Position numbers and translations under genes: made by a program. A DNA stretch of 22,773 bases, taken from the UHGV virus genome UHGV-0256221. One strand, given 5' to 3'. The notes under the pieces are model-generated. The model was given only the letters and a program-made list of their open reading frames with translations. It did not search any database and was not told the origin of the DNA. The stretch's first letter is position 1, and each line of letters begins with the position of its first letter. Source of the stretch: a virus. This document shows, in pieces, positions 7,562-15,816 of this stretch.

Positions 7562-7927
7562 TTAATGGCTAAGGCCATGTCCTAAACCGTTTAGATAAAC
7601 CTCAACCAGCAAATCTTTGGTGTAGGTACGTTCGATGCCACGGTGAAGATACAGGCGTCCGCGAGCGTTAGCTGATGCCGTCCAGGTTGAGTCTTTGTGT
7701 TTGACGAGCATCCCCGGCTGAACTGCGCCGCGGTTTACTGTCTGTGTACCGTAGTGCTGATGAACCATGATGTTCTCCACTATTGCTGAGTGAACTTCGC
7801 TGGTGGTGCCGTGGTGCTGATCTTCACAGTTGAGCGTTTTAACTCTGCAGTTCACCACCGCGAAACCCACTCTTATGTGCCTGTCTTTTATCCACTTCAG
7901 GCTCGGTGGTATGCTGGTAGTTCTCAC
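7562..7927 (-). CDS. Hypothetical protein, early-left operon
   Basis: 121-aa ORF with GTG start; true start may be the internal ATG (MVHQHYG...). No recognisable motif. Confidence 0.35.
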   Translation of the reverse strand: MRTTSIPPSLKWIKDRHIRVGFAVVNCRVKTLNCEDQHHGTTSEVHSAIVENIMVHQHYGTQTVNRGAVQPGMLVKHKDSTWTASANARGRLYLHRGIERTYTKDLLVEVYLNGLGHGLSH

Positions 7928-7947: not shown

Positions 7948-8241
7948 ATGAAATCAGTAACTAAGCCATGTCCTATTTGTGGTGAAGATTCTTTGTCTTT
8001 TAACCAGACAAATCAGTTGGTTAACATCAAAGTAAAACCACCAACTATTCGTGAAGTTCCATCAGTGGTTTACGTTTGCGATACTCACGGATGGTTTTCA
8101 CTTTCAGAACAGATAAACAGACTCGTCACATCTAATGACGACCCTGCGGCTAAGCAAAAACTGGCTGTTATTGTCAAAGAGCGATATGTGCCGGAACAGG
8201 ATCAGCCGTTAGCCCTGAAACCTATTGAGTCGCTCGCATAA
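7948..8241 (+). CDS. Zinc-ribbon protein encoded antisense to the early-left operon
   Basis: 97 aa; AAGGAA RBS 5 nt before ATG; CPICG ... VCDTHG (C-x2-C ... C-x2-H); candidate extended -10 (TGgTATGCT) about 35 bp upstream; 3' end overlaps the convergent N-like gene by 20 bp. Confidence 0.45.
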   Translation: MKSVTKPCPICGEDSLSFNQTNQLVNIKVKPPTIREVPSVVYVCDTHGWFSLSEQINRLVTSNDDPAAKQKLAVIVKERYVPEQDQPLALKPIESLA

Positions 8242-8491
8242 GGTCTTTTCGGCTCTCGCTGCGATATCCCAGGCGGTACATTTTCACGTAGGCTTTGCCG
8301 CGAGGAATGCCGCCTGTTTTGTTGAATCTCTGCTGGGCGCGGCGATGGTGTTTTGCTTCAGGGCTGTTTGAACCTTTCCCGCCATTCGATCGAGAACTTG
8401 GGAGTTGCATTGGCTTTTGGCGTGAATAGAATTTACGTGCCCAGCATGCTCCAAAGCCGATCATGCCTGTTTTCTTCGTATTACCTTTCAT
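8222..8491 (-). CDS. Small Arg/Lys-rich protein, first gene after the putative PL; N-like antiterminator candidate
   Basis: 89 aa, highly basic and low complexity; GAGGGG RBS; positional analogy to lambda N only. Confidence 0.3.
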   Translation of the reverse strand: MKGNTKKTGMIGFGACWARKFYSRQKPMQLPSSRSNGGKGSNSPEAKHHRRAQQRFNKTGGIPRGKAYVKMYRLGYRSESRKDLMRATQ

Positions 8492-8570
8492 CTCAATCCC
8501 CTCGTTTGCCCTTGTCGCCAGGCCAGCGGAACGTTTGAACTTGATGCGCTTAGTGTTTCTCGATGGGGTG

Positions 8571-8612
8571 ATGATAGCTAAGGCGATTTATTTTATCAAT
8601 CGCTTAAACGAT
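8571..8612 (-). promoter_or_regulatory. Putative PL promoter with OL operator half-sites
   Basis: Leftward strand: -35 TTGATA, 17-bp spacer, -10 TATCAT; overlaps ATAGC-N4-GCGAT and ATCGC-N4-ACGAT elements matching the OR repeats. Confidence 0.4.
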
Positions 8613-8936
8613 AATATTGTGATTTTGCCGATTATTATTTGATTTATAAAGTGATTTATTTTTGTATGAGATGCGTGATATGCTCAAAAAAACACCAGGC
8701 GGGGATATTGATATGGGTTTAGGAATGGATATGTCACGTGATGAGCTGCTGGAAGATCGCGCTGCTTTCATGGCTGGCGAGATTGGCGGTGCAGTTGTCG
8801 AGTAGATAATCAACGGTGTGGTGATAAGTCGAGATGCGATAGTAGATAGCTTGGAGACTAAGCGTCGCGCGGTTGGAAATGTGATTCACAAAGGAGTGTT
8901 GTGGGATGTCACTGCTATGGTGAGAAAAGGAATATG

Positions 8937-8970
8937 AAAACCGGCATAATGCCGGTTTACTTTGATTTTT
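8937..8970. terminator. Bidirectional intrinsic terminator at the end of the repressor-linked operon
   Basis: AAAACCGGC-ATAAT-GCCGGTTT hairpin with T-runs on both strands; overlaps the stop codon of the 210-aa gene. Confidence 0.55.
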
Positions 8971-9589
8971 CCTGTTGGTGAAGTACTCGTGGAGTAGTTG
9001 GTTCTTGAGGTAATTGGATGATAACAGGTTGCTGCGCTACTGGTTGAACTACGGGCGGATCACTCTTCAAGGCAGAAACAAGACTAGGTAATGCAACGAC
9101 AACCGCAATGATAACGCCAAAAATAGCAAGCCTAGTGGAAATACCTGATTGAATACCGCCAATCGCAGTGTTTATTCCTGTAATTTGCCCTTGTATACCT
9201 TCGAATTTGCCATTGATGGCTTTTACATCCCCATCAACGCTATCCATTTTCCCTTCAATTTTAGAAGAAATAGAGCTAATAGATGAATTGAGCGATGCCA
9301 GCTGAACGTTCATATTCTCGCGTGACAAAGCCATTTCAGCTCTAATCGAAGATGCAATGGACTCCATCTCCGCCTTATTGGCAGCTAGAAGTGCTTGCAT
9401 TTCTTCACGGCTAACTGATGACATTTCATTTCCCCCATCAGTTTCATTAGCTTCATCTGTTGATTTGATAAAGTTAGTATACATTTCTTCTTTATCGACG
9501 CGTAGTCTGTTTTGAACATTGGGGTACAGGTCATCTTTATCAATGCCAGAACCGCAGTCTGGGACAGCTTTGAGAGATGGGCCCATCAC
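8957..9589 (-). CDS. Tail-anchored coiled-coil membrane protein (candidate exclusion / abortive-infection effector)
   Basis: 210 aa; long heptad-like Ser/Ala/Glu-rich region, single C-terminal hydrophobic helix (LAIFGVIIAVVVALPSLVSAL), Pro/Gln-rich tail; start overlaps the upstream stop (ATGA); AT-rich. Confidence 0.55.
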   Translation of the reverse strand: MMGPSLKAVPDCGSGIDKDDLYPNVQNRLRVDKEEMYTNFIKSTDEANETDGGNEMSSVSREEMQALLAANKAEMESIASSIRAEMALSRENMNVQLASLNSSISSISSKIEGKMDSVDGDVKAINGKFEGIQGQITGINTAIGGIQSGISTRLAIFGVIIAVVVALPSLVSALKSDPPVVQPVAQQPVIIQLPQEPTTPRVLHQQEKSK

Positions 9590-9948
9590 TTCCCATCCTC
9601 TCCTTGATCTTCTTTTCTTTTATTAATCAGTGTCCTGGCTTTTTTATAAGAAAAAAGCAGTACATGTGCGCAGTGATCACACGTGATTCGAAATAGTGGC
9701 ATACCGCCAGGATATGTCACAGCACTATCAGTATCAGGTTTGTATTGTGCATAACTAAGTGTTTCGATCACATGATGTTTTGGCTGATTTTCTTCTACAT
9801 CAAGATCAAAGGCACCAACTACAGACCATGACTGGTTCCCGCAGATTTGGCAAGTTATTGGTTTTTTGAATGAATTTATGAAATCAATGAACTCATCCGC
9901 TGTGATAATCTCGGAGTTTGCTTCACTATGAAATAATTCCGATTTCAT
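9586..9948 (-). CDS. Zinc-ribbon protein, first gene downstream of the repressor gene
   Basis: ORF 9586..9972 (TTG); likely ATG at 9948 (MKSELFH) with AAGGA RBS; CQICG ... CDHCAH; only 44 bp after the repressor stop, no terminator between; AT-rich. Confidence 0.5.
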   Translation of the reverse strand: MKSELFHSEANSEIITADEFIDFINSFKKPITCQICGNQSWSVVGAFDLDVEENQPKHHVIETLSYAQYKPDTDSAVTYPGGMPLFRITCDHCAHVLLFSYKKARTLINKRKEDQGEDGK

Positions 9949-9992
9949 AATTATGATCCTTTTTTGGGCCAAAGTAGATAAAAAGTACAGTT

Positions 9993-10676
9993 TTACAATC
10001 GGTTATACTTTATTGATTCATGAATCAATGCCTTACCCATTACGTAGAGTTGATCCTGATTACCTTCGTTAATGTACCACTTCTCATAAGCTGAGTTATC
10101 AGACAAAACTGCCAACCTATCGCCCTGCATCTGCAAGCGCTTCACATGGAAATGTTGTCCGAAAACGAACGCATAAACACCGTCGACCTTGAAGTTTCTT
10201 ACAGAAATATCGAAAAACAATCTGTCACCAGACTGTATAGTTGGACACATGCTGTCGCCATCGACCGTCATTACTTTTACGTCTTCCTGAGAACGATTTC
10301 CGAAGAGTGAACGAGCGTGTTCGGTTGTGAACTCAATGGCGTGTAGAACCTCAACAAACTCAGAAATCATGAAAGAACCTGGCCCCGCGCTAAATGTCAG
10401 GTCAAGTACGTCAACTCTGAATATGTTTGAGTCTTTTTTTGTCGCGGTAATGGGAGGCGGTAGCTGGCCATCGTTACGCATCGGTCCGGATCCCGTGGAA
10501 AGCCATTCAGGGCGAACATTGAGAACAGAAGCTATCTCGACCGTTTTTCTTGAGCTTGATGCACCATTTAGCAGCTTGTTAACACTTGACTGTGCCATGC
10601 CAACTGCCTTAGCTAGCTTGCCCTGTGTATAACCCGCCTCATTCATTGCGCGATCTAATCGCTCAGAAAAACTCAT
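9993..10676 (-). CDS. CI-like repressor (N-terminal HTH, C-terminal S24 LexA-like peptidase domain)
   Basis: 227 aa; HTH (YTQGKLAKAVGMAQSSVNKLL); S24 motifs (GDSMCPT, KR); divergent from the cro-like gene across an operator-rich region. Confidence 0.85.
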   Translation of the reverse strand: MSFSERLDRAMNEAGYTQGKLAKAVGMAQSSVNKLLNGASSSRKTVEIASVLNVRPEWLSTGSGPMRNDGQLPPPITATKKDSNIFRVDVLDLTFSAGPGSFMISEFVEVLHAIEFTTEHARSLFGNRSQEDVKVMTVDGDSMCPTIQSGDRLFFDISVRNFKVDGVYAFVFGQHFHVKRLQMQGDRLAVLSDNSAYEKWYINEGNQDQLYVMGKALIHESIKYNRL

Positions 10677-10707
10677 TAAAGATACCCCCTAATAACCTTC
10701 ATAAATA

Positions 10708-10778
10708 TTATCGCCACAGCGATTAATAAGCAAAAAATCGCATAGGCGATTGACATTCGTTAAAGCGATAAACATAAT
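10708..10778. promoter_or_regulatory. OR operator cluster with PR (and presumed divergent PRM)
   Basis: Three ATCGC-N4-GCGAT elements (about 10710-10723, 10737-10750, weaker 10756-10769); PR -35 TTGACA (10750-10755), 17-bp spacer, -10 CATAAT (10773-10778). Confidence 0.6.
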
Positions 10779-10805
10779 CAACCTAAATTGATAGAAGGAG
10801 CGATT

Positions 10806-11036
10806 ATGAAAAACCCTGCTGTAGAAAAAGCGATTGCAATCGCCGGTAGTCAGAAAGAGCTAGCGAAGCGATGTGGTAAGGCCCAATCCACGGTCTGTGA
10901 CTGGTTAAATGGGAAAAAACAAATCTCCCCGATCCATGTTCCTGTTTTGGTAAAGGCAAGCGAAGGACAGATTCAAGCTCATGAATTCCGTCCCGACCTT
11001 CCTGAATTGTTTCCGCATCCACATTCAGCCGCCTGA
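10806..11036 (+). CDS. Cro-like / YdaS-family HTH regulator
   Basis: ORF 10788..11036; ATG at 10806 with GAAGGAG RBS; small HTH protein (SQKELAKRCGKAQSTVCDWLNG) transcribed from PR. Confidence 0.7.
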   Translation: MKNPAVEKAIAIAGSQKELAKRCGKAQSTVCDWLNGKKQISPIHVPVLVKASEGQIQAHEFRPDLPELFPHPHSAA

Positions 11037-11067
11037 CCGGCGGCGCTAACCATCAAGGGAAAGCACT

Positions 11068-11607
11068 ATGCAATCACTTACGTTTTACCAGGATACAGGA
11101 TTGCCGCAGCAGGCGGTGATAAATCGTGCTCAAGCGTGCAAGGGACCTAGCCATGAAGATATTCGTGATGCCGTTCGCTCATGGGCGGGTGTAGATGGTC
11201 AGGATGTCGTTTCTGCTCTGATCATCGAAGAGTACCAGGCGCAGGGTGGTGATGACATCACTTTCCCTGATGATCTCTGCCGAAAGCGCCAGAAGCTGTT
11301 TCGCTTCCTGGACAACCACTTCAACAGCGAGCGTTACCGCGAGAACGTCCGCCAGCTGACTCCGGCAATCCTCGCTGTCTTGCCGATTGTGTACCGCAGT
11401 CGCCTGCTGCCAGAAGACAACATCATGGCTCGCCTGGCACGTATGGAGAAAGAAACCAGCGAAGCAAAGATTGCCGTCGCAATGGATGCGCCACGCCATC
11501 AAAAGCTGAAAGAGTTGAGCGAGGGGATCGTGGAGATGTATCGCGTTGACCCTGGGTTAACCGGTCCACTGATGGAGATGGTGCAGATGATGCTGGGGGC
11601 TATATGA
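11068..11607 (+). CDS. YdaT-like protein in the CII position
   Basis: 179 aa directly after the cro-like gene; PAILAVLP segment resembles Rac YdaT (from memory). Confidence 0.5.
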   Translation: MQSLTFYQDTGLPQQAVINRAQACKGPSHEDIRDAVRSWAGVDGQDVVSALIIEEYQAQGGDDITFPDDLCRKRQKLFRFLDNHFNSERYRENVRQLTPAILAVLPIVYRSRLLPEDNIMARLARMEKETSEAKIAVAMDAPRHQKLKELSEGIVEMYRVDPGLTGPLMEMVQMMLGAI

Positions 11608-15661: not shown

Positions 15662-15816
15662 GAGAAATCATCGTTGATAACTTTGCCGGCGGCGGCGGGG
15701 CGAGCACGGGCATTGAGCTGGCGATCGGTCGTAGTGTGGATATTGCGATTAACCACGACCCGAACGCTGTTGCGATGCACACTACGAACCACCCGGATAC
15801 ACTGCACTACTGGTGA
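15658..15816 (+). CDS. C5-methyltransferase N-terminal segment (motif I), ends at an in-frame stop
   Basis: GTG at 15658; translation (M)REIIVDNFAGGGGASTG...NHPDTLHYW-stop carries the AdoMet motif I; the rest of the enzyme continues in another frame. Confidence 0.5.
   Translation: MREIIVDNFAGGGGASTGIELAIGRSVDIAINHDPNAVAMHTTNHPDTLHYW

What the first reader, a model, noticed from the sequence alone, without database searches (positions are those of the whole stretch)
10700..10800. Shared operator grammar (ATCGC-N4-GCGAT) at OR and at the putative OL
The cI/cro intergenic region has three 14-bp inverted-repeat elements with half-site ATCGC, interleaved with a near-consensus PR (TTGACA, 17 bp, CATAAT). 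The same half-sites recur about 2.1 kb to the left (about 8574-8612), overlapping a leftward TTGATA-17-TATCAT promoter. This defines the immunity specificity of the prophage and delimits the repressor-linked cassette between OL and the repressor gene.
Basis: partly seen in the sequence, partly recalled or inferred. Interest (0 to 1): 0.4.

Follow-up and report, generated by a model that had tools for sequence, protein, structure and literature searches.

The report
Prophage repressor operators, new immunity type
The repeated ATCGC-N4-GCGAT motifs are very probably the binding sites through which this E. coli prophage's repressor and Cro protein control its early promoters: an ordinary lambda/434-style genetic switch whose DNA specificity has not been described before.

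Summary
ATCGC-N4-GCGAT occurs exactly twice in 22.8 kb (expected 0.03), both between the divergent repressor (9993-10676, minus strand) and cro (10806-11036) genes. A third copy matching 8 of 10 bases fills the spacer of an 11/12-consensus rightward promoter (PR). Two copies matching 9 of 10 lie 2.1 kb to the left on a 10/12 leftward promoter (PL).

- About 35 diverged relatives with the same repressor recognition helix (QSSVNKLL) keep the half-sites at the same positions, while centres and flanks drift. They include Klebsiella phages Mulock and ST11-VIM1phi8.1.
- Relatives with other helices keep the 5-N4-5 geometry but change the letters: ATAGC, ATAAC (HK639), ATCGG, ATACG. Their Cro helices change in step.
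- The repressor's DNA-binding domain is homologous to the 434 repressor, whose operators are also 14 bp.

- A conserved leftward repressor-maintenance promoter (PRM: TTGnnn-17-TAnnnT, 37 of 37 relatives) with site 1 in its spacer.
- A decayed third left-operator (OL) site.
- A candidate weak fourth site over the cro ribosome-binding site.
- A variable cargo slot between the repressor gene and OL.

Verdict: a new member of a known kind, of low to moderate interest.

The parts
10710..10723 (.). OR site 1 (OR3-like), ATCGCCACAGCGAT, exact; it fills the spacer of the leftward PRM promoter
   Evidence: conserved half-sites with a variable centre in relatives
10737..10750 (.). OR site 2 (OR2-like), ATCGCATAGGCGAT, exact; its last base is the first base of the PR -35, and it lies 3 bp upstream of the PRM -35
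   Evidence: present in all 22 distinct same-helix relatives
10756..10769 (.). OR site 3 (OR1-like), TTCGTTAAAGCGAT, 8/10; lies in the PR spacer directly after the -35
   Evidence: same position, with 1-2 mismatches, in relatives (TTCGC-N4-GTGAT, ATCTC-N4-GCGAT)
10791..10804 (.). Candidate weak fourth site, ATAGAAGGAGCGAT (8/10), over the cro Shine-Dalgarno sequence, about +6 to +19 of PR
   Evidence: the equivalent position in other immunity groups matches their own consensus; ambiguous in the window's own group
10750..10778 (+). PR promoter, TTGACA-17-CATAAT
10705..10733 (-). Inferred PRM promoter for the repressor operon, TTGCTT-17-TAATAT on the minus strand
   Evidence: TTGnnn-17-TAnnnT in the same register in 37/37 distinct relatives
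8574..8587 (.). OL site 1, minus-strand ATCGCCTTAGCTAT (9/10), overlapping the PL -10 by 3 bases
   Evidence: conserved as ATCGCYWTRGCTAT in relatives
8599..8612 (.). OL site 2, minus-strand ATCGTTTAAGCGAT (9/10), abutting the PL -35 exactly as OR site 2 abuts the PR -35
8619..8632 (.). Decayed third OL site, minus-strand ATCGGCAAAATCAC (one half-site kept); intact in the Klebsiella phages, 21 bp from OL2
8571..8599 (-). PL promoter, TTGATA-17-TATCAT on the minus strand
9993..10676 (-). cI-type repressor, 227 aa: 434-like HTH domain (helix QSSVNKLLNG, residues 29-38) plus a LexA/S24 autocleavage domain (Ala97-Gly98, GDSM Ser142, HVKRL Lys179)
10806..11036 (+). Cro, YdaS-family HTH, 76 aa, recognition helix QSTVCDWLN
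11068..11607 (+). YdaT-domain (cII-position) gene
8957..9972 (-). Two-gene cassette downstream of the repressor (128 aa with two CxxC pairs, phrog_4293; 210 aa, phrog_5820; their reading frames overlap by 4 bases), function unknown
   Evidence: absent in Mulock and ST11-VIM1phi8.1
8938..8958 (.). Strong hairpin terminator closing the repressor operon (-12.9 kcal/mol)

Best explanation
This is the immunity switch of a lambdoid (Rac/HK639-like) E. coli prophage.

Dimers of the repressor bind 14-bp operators ATCGC-N4-GCGAT through a 434-type helix-turn-helix domain, and dimers of the YdaS-family Cro probably bind the same sites.

At the right operator (OR), sites 2 and 3 cover the -35 edge and the spacer of PR, so occupancy shuts off cro and the rightward early genes. 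A weak fourth site at +6 to +19 may add to this. Site 1 fills the spacer of the leftward promoter PRM, which drives the repressor gene and its two-gene cassette. Occupancy of site 1 by excess repressor or by Cro therefore turns that operon down. Repressor at site 2, just upstream of the PRM -35, may stimulate PRM.

At the left operator (OL), two sites cover the -35 edge and the -10 of PL and silence the leftward early operon (Kil, RecET). The S24 domain makes the switch inducible by the SOS response.

Shown here: the sequence features, their conservation, and their covariation with both proteins' recognition helices. Inferred: binding itself, the order in which sites fill, activation of PRM, cooperativity and OL-OR looping.
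For: Statistics in the window:
- 2 exact sites against 0.03 expected.
- 32 sites with at most 2 mismatches against 15.4 expected.
- The densest half-site cluster of the window lies at OR.

Promoters: PR matches 11/12 and PL 10/12.

Gene identities: HTH_3 plus Peptidase_S24, YdaS, YdaT.

Conservation among relatives with the same helix:
- Sites sit at fixed offsets from the cro ATG (-96, -69, -50). Site 1 has 20 different central tetranucleotides.
- The OL pair is conserved at 25-bp spacing.

Specificity covariation:
- cI QSSV with Cro QSTV goes with ATCGC.
- QPSV with QPSV goes with ATAGC.
- QPAI with QPAV (HK639) goes with ATAAC.
- QSSINQ with QPTV goes with ATCGG.
- QPTI with QPTV goes with ATACG.

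Structure by homology: the N-terminal domain aligns end to end with the 434 repressor (E = 6e-6), helix on helix.

PRM: TTGnnn-17-TAnnnT is kept in 37 of 37 relatives.

Experimental precedent: in prophage CP-933P, a YdaS protein and the repressor PaaR2 footprint overlapping operators at PR/PRM and regulate a PL (PMC8630535).
Against: - No binding or transcription data exist for this element.
- The site that should be the strongest by the lambda analogy (site 3, OR1-like) is the most degenerate, while the OR3-like site 1 is perfect. Either the order of filling differs from lambda or it depends on the central bases. Central GC is 0.39 for site 1, 0.24 for site 2 and 0.06 for site 3.
- Centre-to-centre spacings are irregular (27, 19, 35 bp at OR; 25 bp at OL), so simple same-face cooperativity is not obvious.
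- Site 2 is centred near -45.5 of the inferred PRM start, further upstream than lambda OR2 (about -42, from memory). Activation of PRM is therefore uncertain.
- The relatives share ancestry, so part of the conservation is inheritance rather than selection.
Confidence: 0.85

Rival explanations
1. The palindromes are bound by only one of the two regulators, and the other acts through different sequences. For example, Cro could bind them alone, or the repressor alone.
For: In CP-933P the exact sequences bound by PaaR2 and YdaS could not be resolved, and two kinds of repeat were proposed (PMC8630535). The repressor and Cro here belong to different HTH families.
Against: In every immunity group the first four residues of the two recognition helices are alike (QSSV/QSTV, QPSV/QPSV, QPAI/QPAV, QPTI/QPTV), and both change when the half-site changes. 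De novo search for perfect palindromes of 4 to 6 bases per arm found one other in the OR intergenic region, ATCAACCTAAATTGAT at 10777-10792. It is not kept in Mulock or L010.
Confidence: 0.1
2. Only sites 1 and 2 at OR are functional. The degenerate third and fourth elements are vestiges or products of promoter and ribosome-binding-site constraints.
For: Site 3 has 2 mismatches here and site 4 also has 2. In the window's own immunity group the cro-start region matches ATAGC as well as it matches ATCGC (2.59 against 2.65 mismatches). Site 4 overlaps the Shine-Dalgarno sequence, which is conserved for its own reasons.
Against: Site 3 stays at exactly +19 bp from site 2 in most relatives, with 1-2 mismatches and variable centres. 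In the ATCGG, ATAGC and ATAAC groups the cro-start element matches that group's own consensus best. CP-933P has four repeats at its OR.
Confidence: 0.15
3. The inverted repeats act as RNA hairpins (attenuators or terminators) in leftward transcripts rather than as protein-binding sites.
For: The terminator scan flags 10751-10736, 10723-10710 and 10844-10829 on the minus strand as a short stem followed by a T-run.
Against: The stems have only 5-6 pairs and fold at -5 kcal/mol, against -12.9 for the real terminator at 8938-8958. Within a group the arms are invariant in sequence rather than changing by compensatory pairs. Between groups they switch together with the protein helices. Sites 1 and 2 lie upstream of the inferred PRM start, so they would not be in that transcript.
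Confidence: 0.02

Closest known systems
Phage 434 repressor/Cro and its 14-bp operators
   Same: The repressor N-terminal domain aligns end to end with the 434 repressor domain (PDB 2r63/1per, E = 6e-6), with QSSVNKLLNG on QQSIEQLENG. The operators are 14 bp with conserved outer bases and a variable centre. The repressor and Cro have similar recognition helices. The first helix residue is Gln and the first operator base is A in all groups seen here. In 434, Gln28 reads A1 (from memory of the 434 crystal structures).
   Different: The half-site is ATCGC rather than ACAA, so the immunity differs. Cro is a YdaS-family protein, not a 434 Cro homologue. The site spacings also differ.
Phage lambda OR/OL switch with rexAB behind cI
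   Same: - Divergent cI and cro genes.
- Three operators at OR overlapping PR and PRM.
- A second operator cluster on PL about 2.1 kb away.
- Accessory genes co-transcribed with the repressor, lying between cI and OL.
- An S24 autocleavage domain.
   Different: - Operators are 14 bp rather than 17 bp.
- The repressor mRNA has a leader of about 22 nt with a Shine-Dalgarno sequence; it is not leaderless.
- Only two good OL sites are present.
- The PR-proximal site is the weakest match to consensus rather than the strongest.
Phage HK639 (and HK022) cI
   Same: HK639 is the closest named phage repressor: 72% identity overall, with a nearly identical C-terminal domain. It has the same 5-N4-5 geometry, three OR sites and two OL sites as read from its sequence, and a YdaS-type Cro.
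   Different: The HK639 half-site is ATAAC and its helix is QPAIQKM. HK639 has a putL-like antiterminator RNA; none was found here by blastn or Rfam. HK022 uses TGAAC-N5-GTTCA-like repeats and a different N-terminal domain.
CP-933P PaaR2/YdaS/YdaT switch of E. coli O157:H7 (PMC8630535)
   Same: It has a YdaS-family protein acting as Cro and a YdaT at the cII position. The repressor is followed by a cargo cassette (paaA2-parE2), and OL/PL lie beyond it. Four repeats were reported at its OR. Binding and regulation were shown by EMSA, DNase footprinting and gfp reporters.
   Different: It uses 18-bp palindromes with consensus GTTTAGTAA, and paaR2 is leaderless. I did not compare PaaR2 with this repressor by sequence.
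Klebsiella phages Mulock, ST11-VIM1phi8.1, ST512-KPC3phi13.1, ST13-OXA48phi12.5
   Same: They carry the same repressor helix (MAQSSVNKLLNG), a near-identical Cro helix (QSTICDWLN) and the same operators at OR (spacings 27 and 19 bp) and OL. They are predicted to be homoimmune.
   Different: They have three intact OL sites and no cassette: OL lies about 105 bp after the repressor stop codon. Their C-terminal domains are more distant (about 62% identity overall). Their deposited annotation lists no operators.

Membership tests
Lambdoid immunity switch (cI / OR / cro plus OL) | Divergent genes for an HTH + S24 repressor and a small HTH Cro across an intergenic region of about 130 bp | tested here: met
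   ORFs 9993-10676 (-) and 10806-11036 (+), with a 129-bp gap. Pfam hits: HTH_3 + Peptidase_S24, and YdaS.
Lambdoid immunity switch (cI / OR / cro plus OL) | Several dyad-symmetric operators overlapping divergent promoters PR and PRM | tested here: met
   Sites at 10710, 10737 and 10756. PR matches 11/12. The PRM pattern is conserved in 37/37 relatives. Promoter activity itself was not measured.
Lambdoid immunity switch (cI / OR / cro plus OL) | A second operator cluster of the same sequence type on a leftward early promoter | tested here: met
   Sites 8574-8587 and 8599-8612 on TTGATA-17-TATCAT. The pair is conserved in relatives.
Lambdoid immunity switch (cI / OR / cro plus OL) | Repressor and Cro bind these sites and repress PR and PL | not testable with these tools
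   Only indirect support: covariation of both helices with the half-site.
Lambdoid immunity switch (cI / OR / cro plus OL) | LexA-type autocleavage motifs (Ala-Gly site, catalytic Ser and Lys) | tested here: met
   AGPG at residues 97-100, GDSM at 140-143, HVKRL at 177-181. Peptidase_S24 E = 5e-17. The assignment of Ser142 and Lys179 as catalytic residues is by motif, not by alignment to LexA.
434-type repressor domain and operator | N-terminal domain homologous to the 434 repressor DNA-binding domain | tested here: met
   phmmer against the PDB: 2r63_A at 5.7e-6 and 1per_L at 1.6e-5, residues 2-62 aligned to 1-62.
434-type repressor domain and operator | 14-bp operator with conserved outer bases and a variable centre | tested here: met
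   Site 1 information content: half-sites 1.8 bits, centre 0.5 bits.
434-type repressor domain and operator | 434 immunity: ACAA...TTGT half-sites and helix QQSIEQLENG | tested here: not met
   The half-site is ATCGC and the helix is QSSVNKLLNG. It works like 434 but does not have 434 immunity.
HK639 immunity group | Same repressor recognition helix and same operators as HK639 | tested here: not met
   HK639 has helix QPAIQKM and sites ATAAC-N4-GTTAT. Only the C-terminal domain is shared.
Rac-type ydaS-ydaT module | YdaS-family Cro followed by a YdaT-domain protein | tested here: met
   PF15943 at 1.6e-14 and PF06254 at 1e-24.
Rac-type ydaS-ydaT module | A RacR-type repressor | not tested
   The repressor here is a LexA/S24-type cI. 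No comparison with the RacR sequence was run.

The most novel reading that the evidence does not exclude
This repressor family may be a natural, readable recognition-code series on a 434-like scaffold. Single changes in helix positions 2, 3 and 6 track single base changes at operator positions 3 to 5:
- QSSV..K goes with ATCGC.
- QPSV..K goes with ATAGC.
- QPAI..K goes with ATAAC.
- QSSI..Q goes with ATCGG.
- QPTI..R goes with ATACG.

In addition, the right operator may really have four sites. The fourth is a weak site over the cro ribosome-binding site that is kept across at least four immunity groups. That would be a different switch layout from lambda and 434, resembling the four repeats of CP-933P.
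Probability: 0.35. Interest if true: 0.4.

Novelty: new member of a known kind. Interest (0 to 1): 0.25.

Why it matters
The result fixes the immunity specificity of a rare E. coli prophage, found in 5 of 5426 complete genomes. It also predicts that this prophage is homoimmune with a set of Klebsiella pneumoniae temperate phages.

It marks the promoters and the boundaries of a repressor-linked cargo slot. Among phages of this immunity type, that slot holds from nothing to about 2 kb of unknown genes, a likely place for exclusion or defence genes.

The family-wide helix-to-half-site correspondences are a ready-made test set for specificity swaps in a 434-like domain. None of this changes how such switches are understood.

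Tried and rejected
- Megablast of 8200-11100 against the phage collection found no match.
- The genome-contig scan with the whole repressor returned only 7 loci, none with the same helix. They proved useful as other-specificity controls.
- The protein search with the N-terminal domain returned only short or frameshifted fragments. Three of them were used to fetch DNA.
- Rfam gave no hit at gathering thresholds. Blastn with the HK639 putL-like and M3-like RNAs gave only chance 9-11-mers, apart from one 18-base match at 89% identity and E = 1.3, so no put-type antiterminator was detected.
- PADLOC gave no hit for the cassette or the first PL genes.
- Literature searches for the motif found nothing. 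The search for HK639 operators returned one unrelated paper.
- HK022 was considered as a model and rejected. Its repeats and its N-terminal domain differ.
- The extra sites with at most one mismatch, at 15763 and 21602, lie inside long open reading frames and were rejected as chance.
- The RNA-hairpin reading was rejected on energy and on the pattern of variation.
- The inverse palindrome GCGATCTAATCGC in repressor codons 5-9 (10650-10662) is not kept even in close relatives, so it is treated as chance.

Full report
**What is in the sequence**

The region 10677-10805 lies between two divergent genes.
- On the left is a 227-aa repressor on the minus strand (9993-10676). It has an N-terminal HTH_3 domain and a C-terminal Peptidase_S24 domain.
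- On the right is a 76-aa YdaS-family HTH protein at the cro position (10806-11036). A YdaT-domain gene follows it at the cII position.

The pattern ATCGCNNNNGCGAT occurs exactly twice in the 22,773-base window, at 10710-10723 and 10737-10750. The chance expectation is 0.03.

Allowing two mismatches adds 10756-10769 (TTCGTTAAAGCGAT) and 10791-10804 (ATAGAAGGAGCGAT). On the left it adds 8574-8587 and 8599-8612, each with one mismatch.

The promoter scan found two strong matches.
- TTGACA-17-CATAAT at 10750-10778 on the plus strand, 11 of 12 to consensus.
- TTGATA-17-TATCAT at 8599-8571 on the minus strand, 10 of 12 to consensus.

The 200-bp stretch richest in ATCGC/GCGAT pentamers in the whole window is 10641-10840, with 10 against a mean of 0.75.

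The third right-operator (OR) element is an 8-of-10 match, not a perfect repeat. Each left-operator (OL) element carries one mismatch.

**Where it comes from**

Bases 8200-11100 are 100% identical to a prophage next to kch/cls in E. coli NZ_LT883142. Near-identical copies occur in only 5 of 5426 complete E. coli genomes. No deposited phage matches at the DNA level.

The neighbouring genes in that record are RecE, RecT, YdaE, a Kil-like protein, DnaT-like and ATP-binding replication proteins, NinG, an antiterminator and lysis genes. This is a lambdoid, Rac-like prophage.

**Comparative test 1: same repressor helix, diverged DNA**

Several searches recovered about 35 distinct intergenic regions whose repressor carries the same recognition helix as the window, or a variant differing only at helix position 5 (QSSVNKLL, QSSVWKL). 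The sources were:
- a protein search with the N-terminal domain;
- look-ups of the contigs that encode the hits;
- a tblastn search of deposited phages;
- a scan of IMG/VR viral contigs.

The set includes Klebsiella phages Mulock and ST11-VIM1phi8.1.

All 22 distinct regions of the QSSVNKLL set contain ATCGC-N4-GCGATTG, that is, site 2 abutting the PR -35. Across the set, sites sit at fixed offsets from the cro ATG: -96, -69 and -50.

Site 1 half-sites carry 1.8 bits per position. Its centre carries 0.5 bits, with 20 different tetranucleotides, and its flanks about 1 bit.

Site 3 is always the least perfect site (TTCGC-N4-GTGAT, ATCTC-N4-GCGAT), but its position never moves.

The OL pair recurs 25 bp apart in nearly every relative with enough flanking DNA. 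Its form is ATCGTTTWRGCGAT abutting the -35, then ATCGCYWTRGCTAT overlapping the -10. The Klebsiella phages and some viral contigs have a third site 21 bp further out. In the window only one half of that third site survives: minus-strand ATCGGCAAAATCAC at 8619-8632.

**Comparative test 2: different helix, different letters, same geometry**

Relatives found through the conserved C-terminal domain, together with further IMG/VR loci, carry other helices. Their intergenic regions carry other 5-N4-5 palindromes.

| Repressor helix | Half-sites | Where seen |
|---|---|---|
| QPSVWKL | ATAGC / GCTAT | L003, L006, L009 |
| QPAIQKM | ATAAC / GTTAT | HK639 and four others |
| QSSINQLL | ATCGG / CCGAT | L039-L048 |
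| QPTIWRL | ATACG / CGTAT | L004 |

A de novo count of palindromic pentamers picks the group's own half-site as the top scorer in most of these regions. In a cross-matrix, each group's main intergenic region matches its own consensus best.

The Cro helices change in step and resemble the repressor helix within each group: QSSV/QSTV, QPSV/QPSV, QPAI/QPAV, QPTI/QPTV. This is what is expected if both proteins read the same operators, as they do in 434.

**Structural frame**

The repressor N-terminal domain aligns end to end with the 434 repressor DNA-binding domain (E = 6e-6). QSSVNKLLNG falls on QQSIEQLENG.

From established knowledge of the 434 complexes (cited from memory), 434 operators are also 14 bp, with conserved outer bases and a centre that is not contacted. 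All groups here keep Gln at helix position 1 and A at operator position 1.

The Cro protein's best solved relatives are two entries named 'antirepressor protein Cro' (E about 1e-3).

**Promoter logic**

Site 2 shares one base with the PR -35. Site 3 fills PR spacer positions 1-14.

On the minus strand, TTGCTT (10733-10728), a 17-bp spacer and TAATAT (10710-10705) form a weak promoter whose spacer is site 1. The pattern TTGnnn-17-TAnnnT is kept in this exact register in 37 of 37 distinct relatives, although the other hexamer positions vary.

I take this to be PRM, the promoter that maintains repressor expression. It would start near 10698 and give a leader of about 22 nt with a GGGGG Shine-Dalgarno sequence. 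That differs from the leaderless lambda cI and paaR2 mRNAs.

The layout therefore maps site 1 to OR3, site 2 to OR2 and site 3 to OR1.

One oddity remains. The OR1-like site is the poorest consensus match and the OR3-like site is perfect. Central GC content rises from site 3 (0.06) through site 2 (0.24) to site 1 (0.39). By analogy with 434, the central bases may set the affinity order. This is an inference only.

**The cassette**

The repressor gene is followed by two genes whose reading frames overlap by 4 bases.
- 9586-9972 encodes 128 aa with two CxxC pairs (phrog_4293).
- 8957-9589 encodes 210 aa (phrog_5820).

A strong hairpin at 8938-8958 (-12.9 kcal/mol) closes the unit. Neither gene has a known function or a PADLOC match.

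Among phages of this immunity type, the distance from the repressor stop codon to OL2 takes values from 105 to 2146 bp; it is 1381 bp in the window. OL therefore does bound a variable cargo slot, like the rexAB position in lambda or paaA2-parE2 in CP-933P.

**A possible fourth site**

The element over the cro Shine-Dalgarno sequence (10791-10804) has counterparts in other groups that match those groups' own consensus.
- ATAGGAGAACCGAT in the ATCGG group (1 mismatch).
- AAAGCAGGAGCTAT in the ATAGC group (1 mismatch).
- ATGAACAAAGTTAT in the HK639 group (2 mismatches).

In the cross-matrix, the group's own consensus is the best match in four groups. In the window's own group it ties with ATAGC (2.65 against 2.59 mismatches). 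I rate this site as a candidate only.

CP-933P was reported to have four repeats at its OR.

**Rivals**

- *Chance* is excluded by the counts and by the conservation among relatives.
- *RNA hairpins* are unlikely. They fold at only -5 kcal/mol, and their arms are invariant rather than compensatory.
- *One regulator using other sites* cannot be excluded without footprints. It is disfavoured by the matched helices.

**Comparison and novelty**

Functionally this is a lambda/434-type switch. By membership:
- the DNA-binding domain is 434-like, but the specificity is not that of 434;
- the C-terminal domain is HK639-like, but the operators are not those of HK639;
- the Cro/cII pair is of the YdaS/YdaT type studied in Rac and CP-933P.

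I found no description of the ATCGC-N4-GCGAT operator in the searchable literature. The deposited annotation of the Klebsiella phages that share it lists no operators.

It is a new member of a known kind. Interest is low to moderate. The main added value is the family-wide helix-to-operator series and the mapped cargo slot.

Noticed in passing
window 10827-10843 (cro codons 8-13): The cro codons for Lys-Ala-Ile are AAA GCG ATT, containing GCGAT, in 16 of 16 distinct cro genes of this immunity group, although neighbouring synonymous positions vary. The ATAGC group has AAA GCT ATT and HK639 has AAA GTT ATT, which are their own half-sites. In the window this forms the inverse palindrome GCGATTGCAATCGC.
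   Followed up: partly
window 8957-9972 (minus strand): A two-gene cassette is probably co-transcribed with the repressor: a 128-aa protein with two CxxC pairs (phrog_4293) and a 210-aa protein (phrog_5820). There is no PADLOC hit and no confident Pfam hit. The same slot is empty in Mulock and holds up to about 2 kb in other relatives. It is a candidate exclusion or defence module.
   Followed up: partly
window 8662-8937 (plus strand): A small reading frame convergent with the repressor operon lies between OL and the terminator. RefSeq annotates the identical DNA as a pseudogene with an internal stop. The first 47 codons hit phrog_3975. HK639 also has an opposite-strand gene at this position.
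   Followed up: no
window 8222-8491 (minus strand) and 7948-8241 (plus strand): The first gene after PL encodes a basic 89-aa protein (phrog_29236) of unknown function. No N-like or put-like antitermination element was recognised. A 97-aa gene on the opposite strand (phrog_31519) interrupts the leftward operon.
   Followed up: partly
window 10777-10792: A perfect 5-N6-5 palindrome, ATCAACCTAAATTGAT, spans the expected PR start site. It is not kept in Mulock or L010.
   Followed up: partly
window 10650-10662: GCGATCTAATCGC lies in repressor codons 5-9 and uses the Arg codon CGA. It is lost in close relatives (L021-L024 read GCGATCTAACCGC), so it is probably chance.
   Followed up: yes
window 7562-7927 (minus strand): The listed 121-aa ORF matches the Kil septation-inhibitor family only over residues 48-120. 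The real start is therefore probably internal.
   Followed up: no
L010-L012, P0001, P0008 and related entries: Several database copies of this repressor family are split or frameshifted after the N-terminal domain: an 83-aa HTH fragment followed by a separate S24 fragment. These may be decaying prophages or assembly errors.
   Followed up: no
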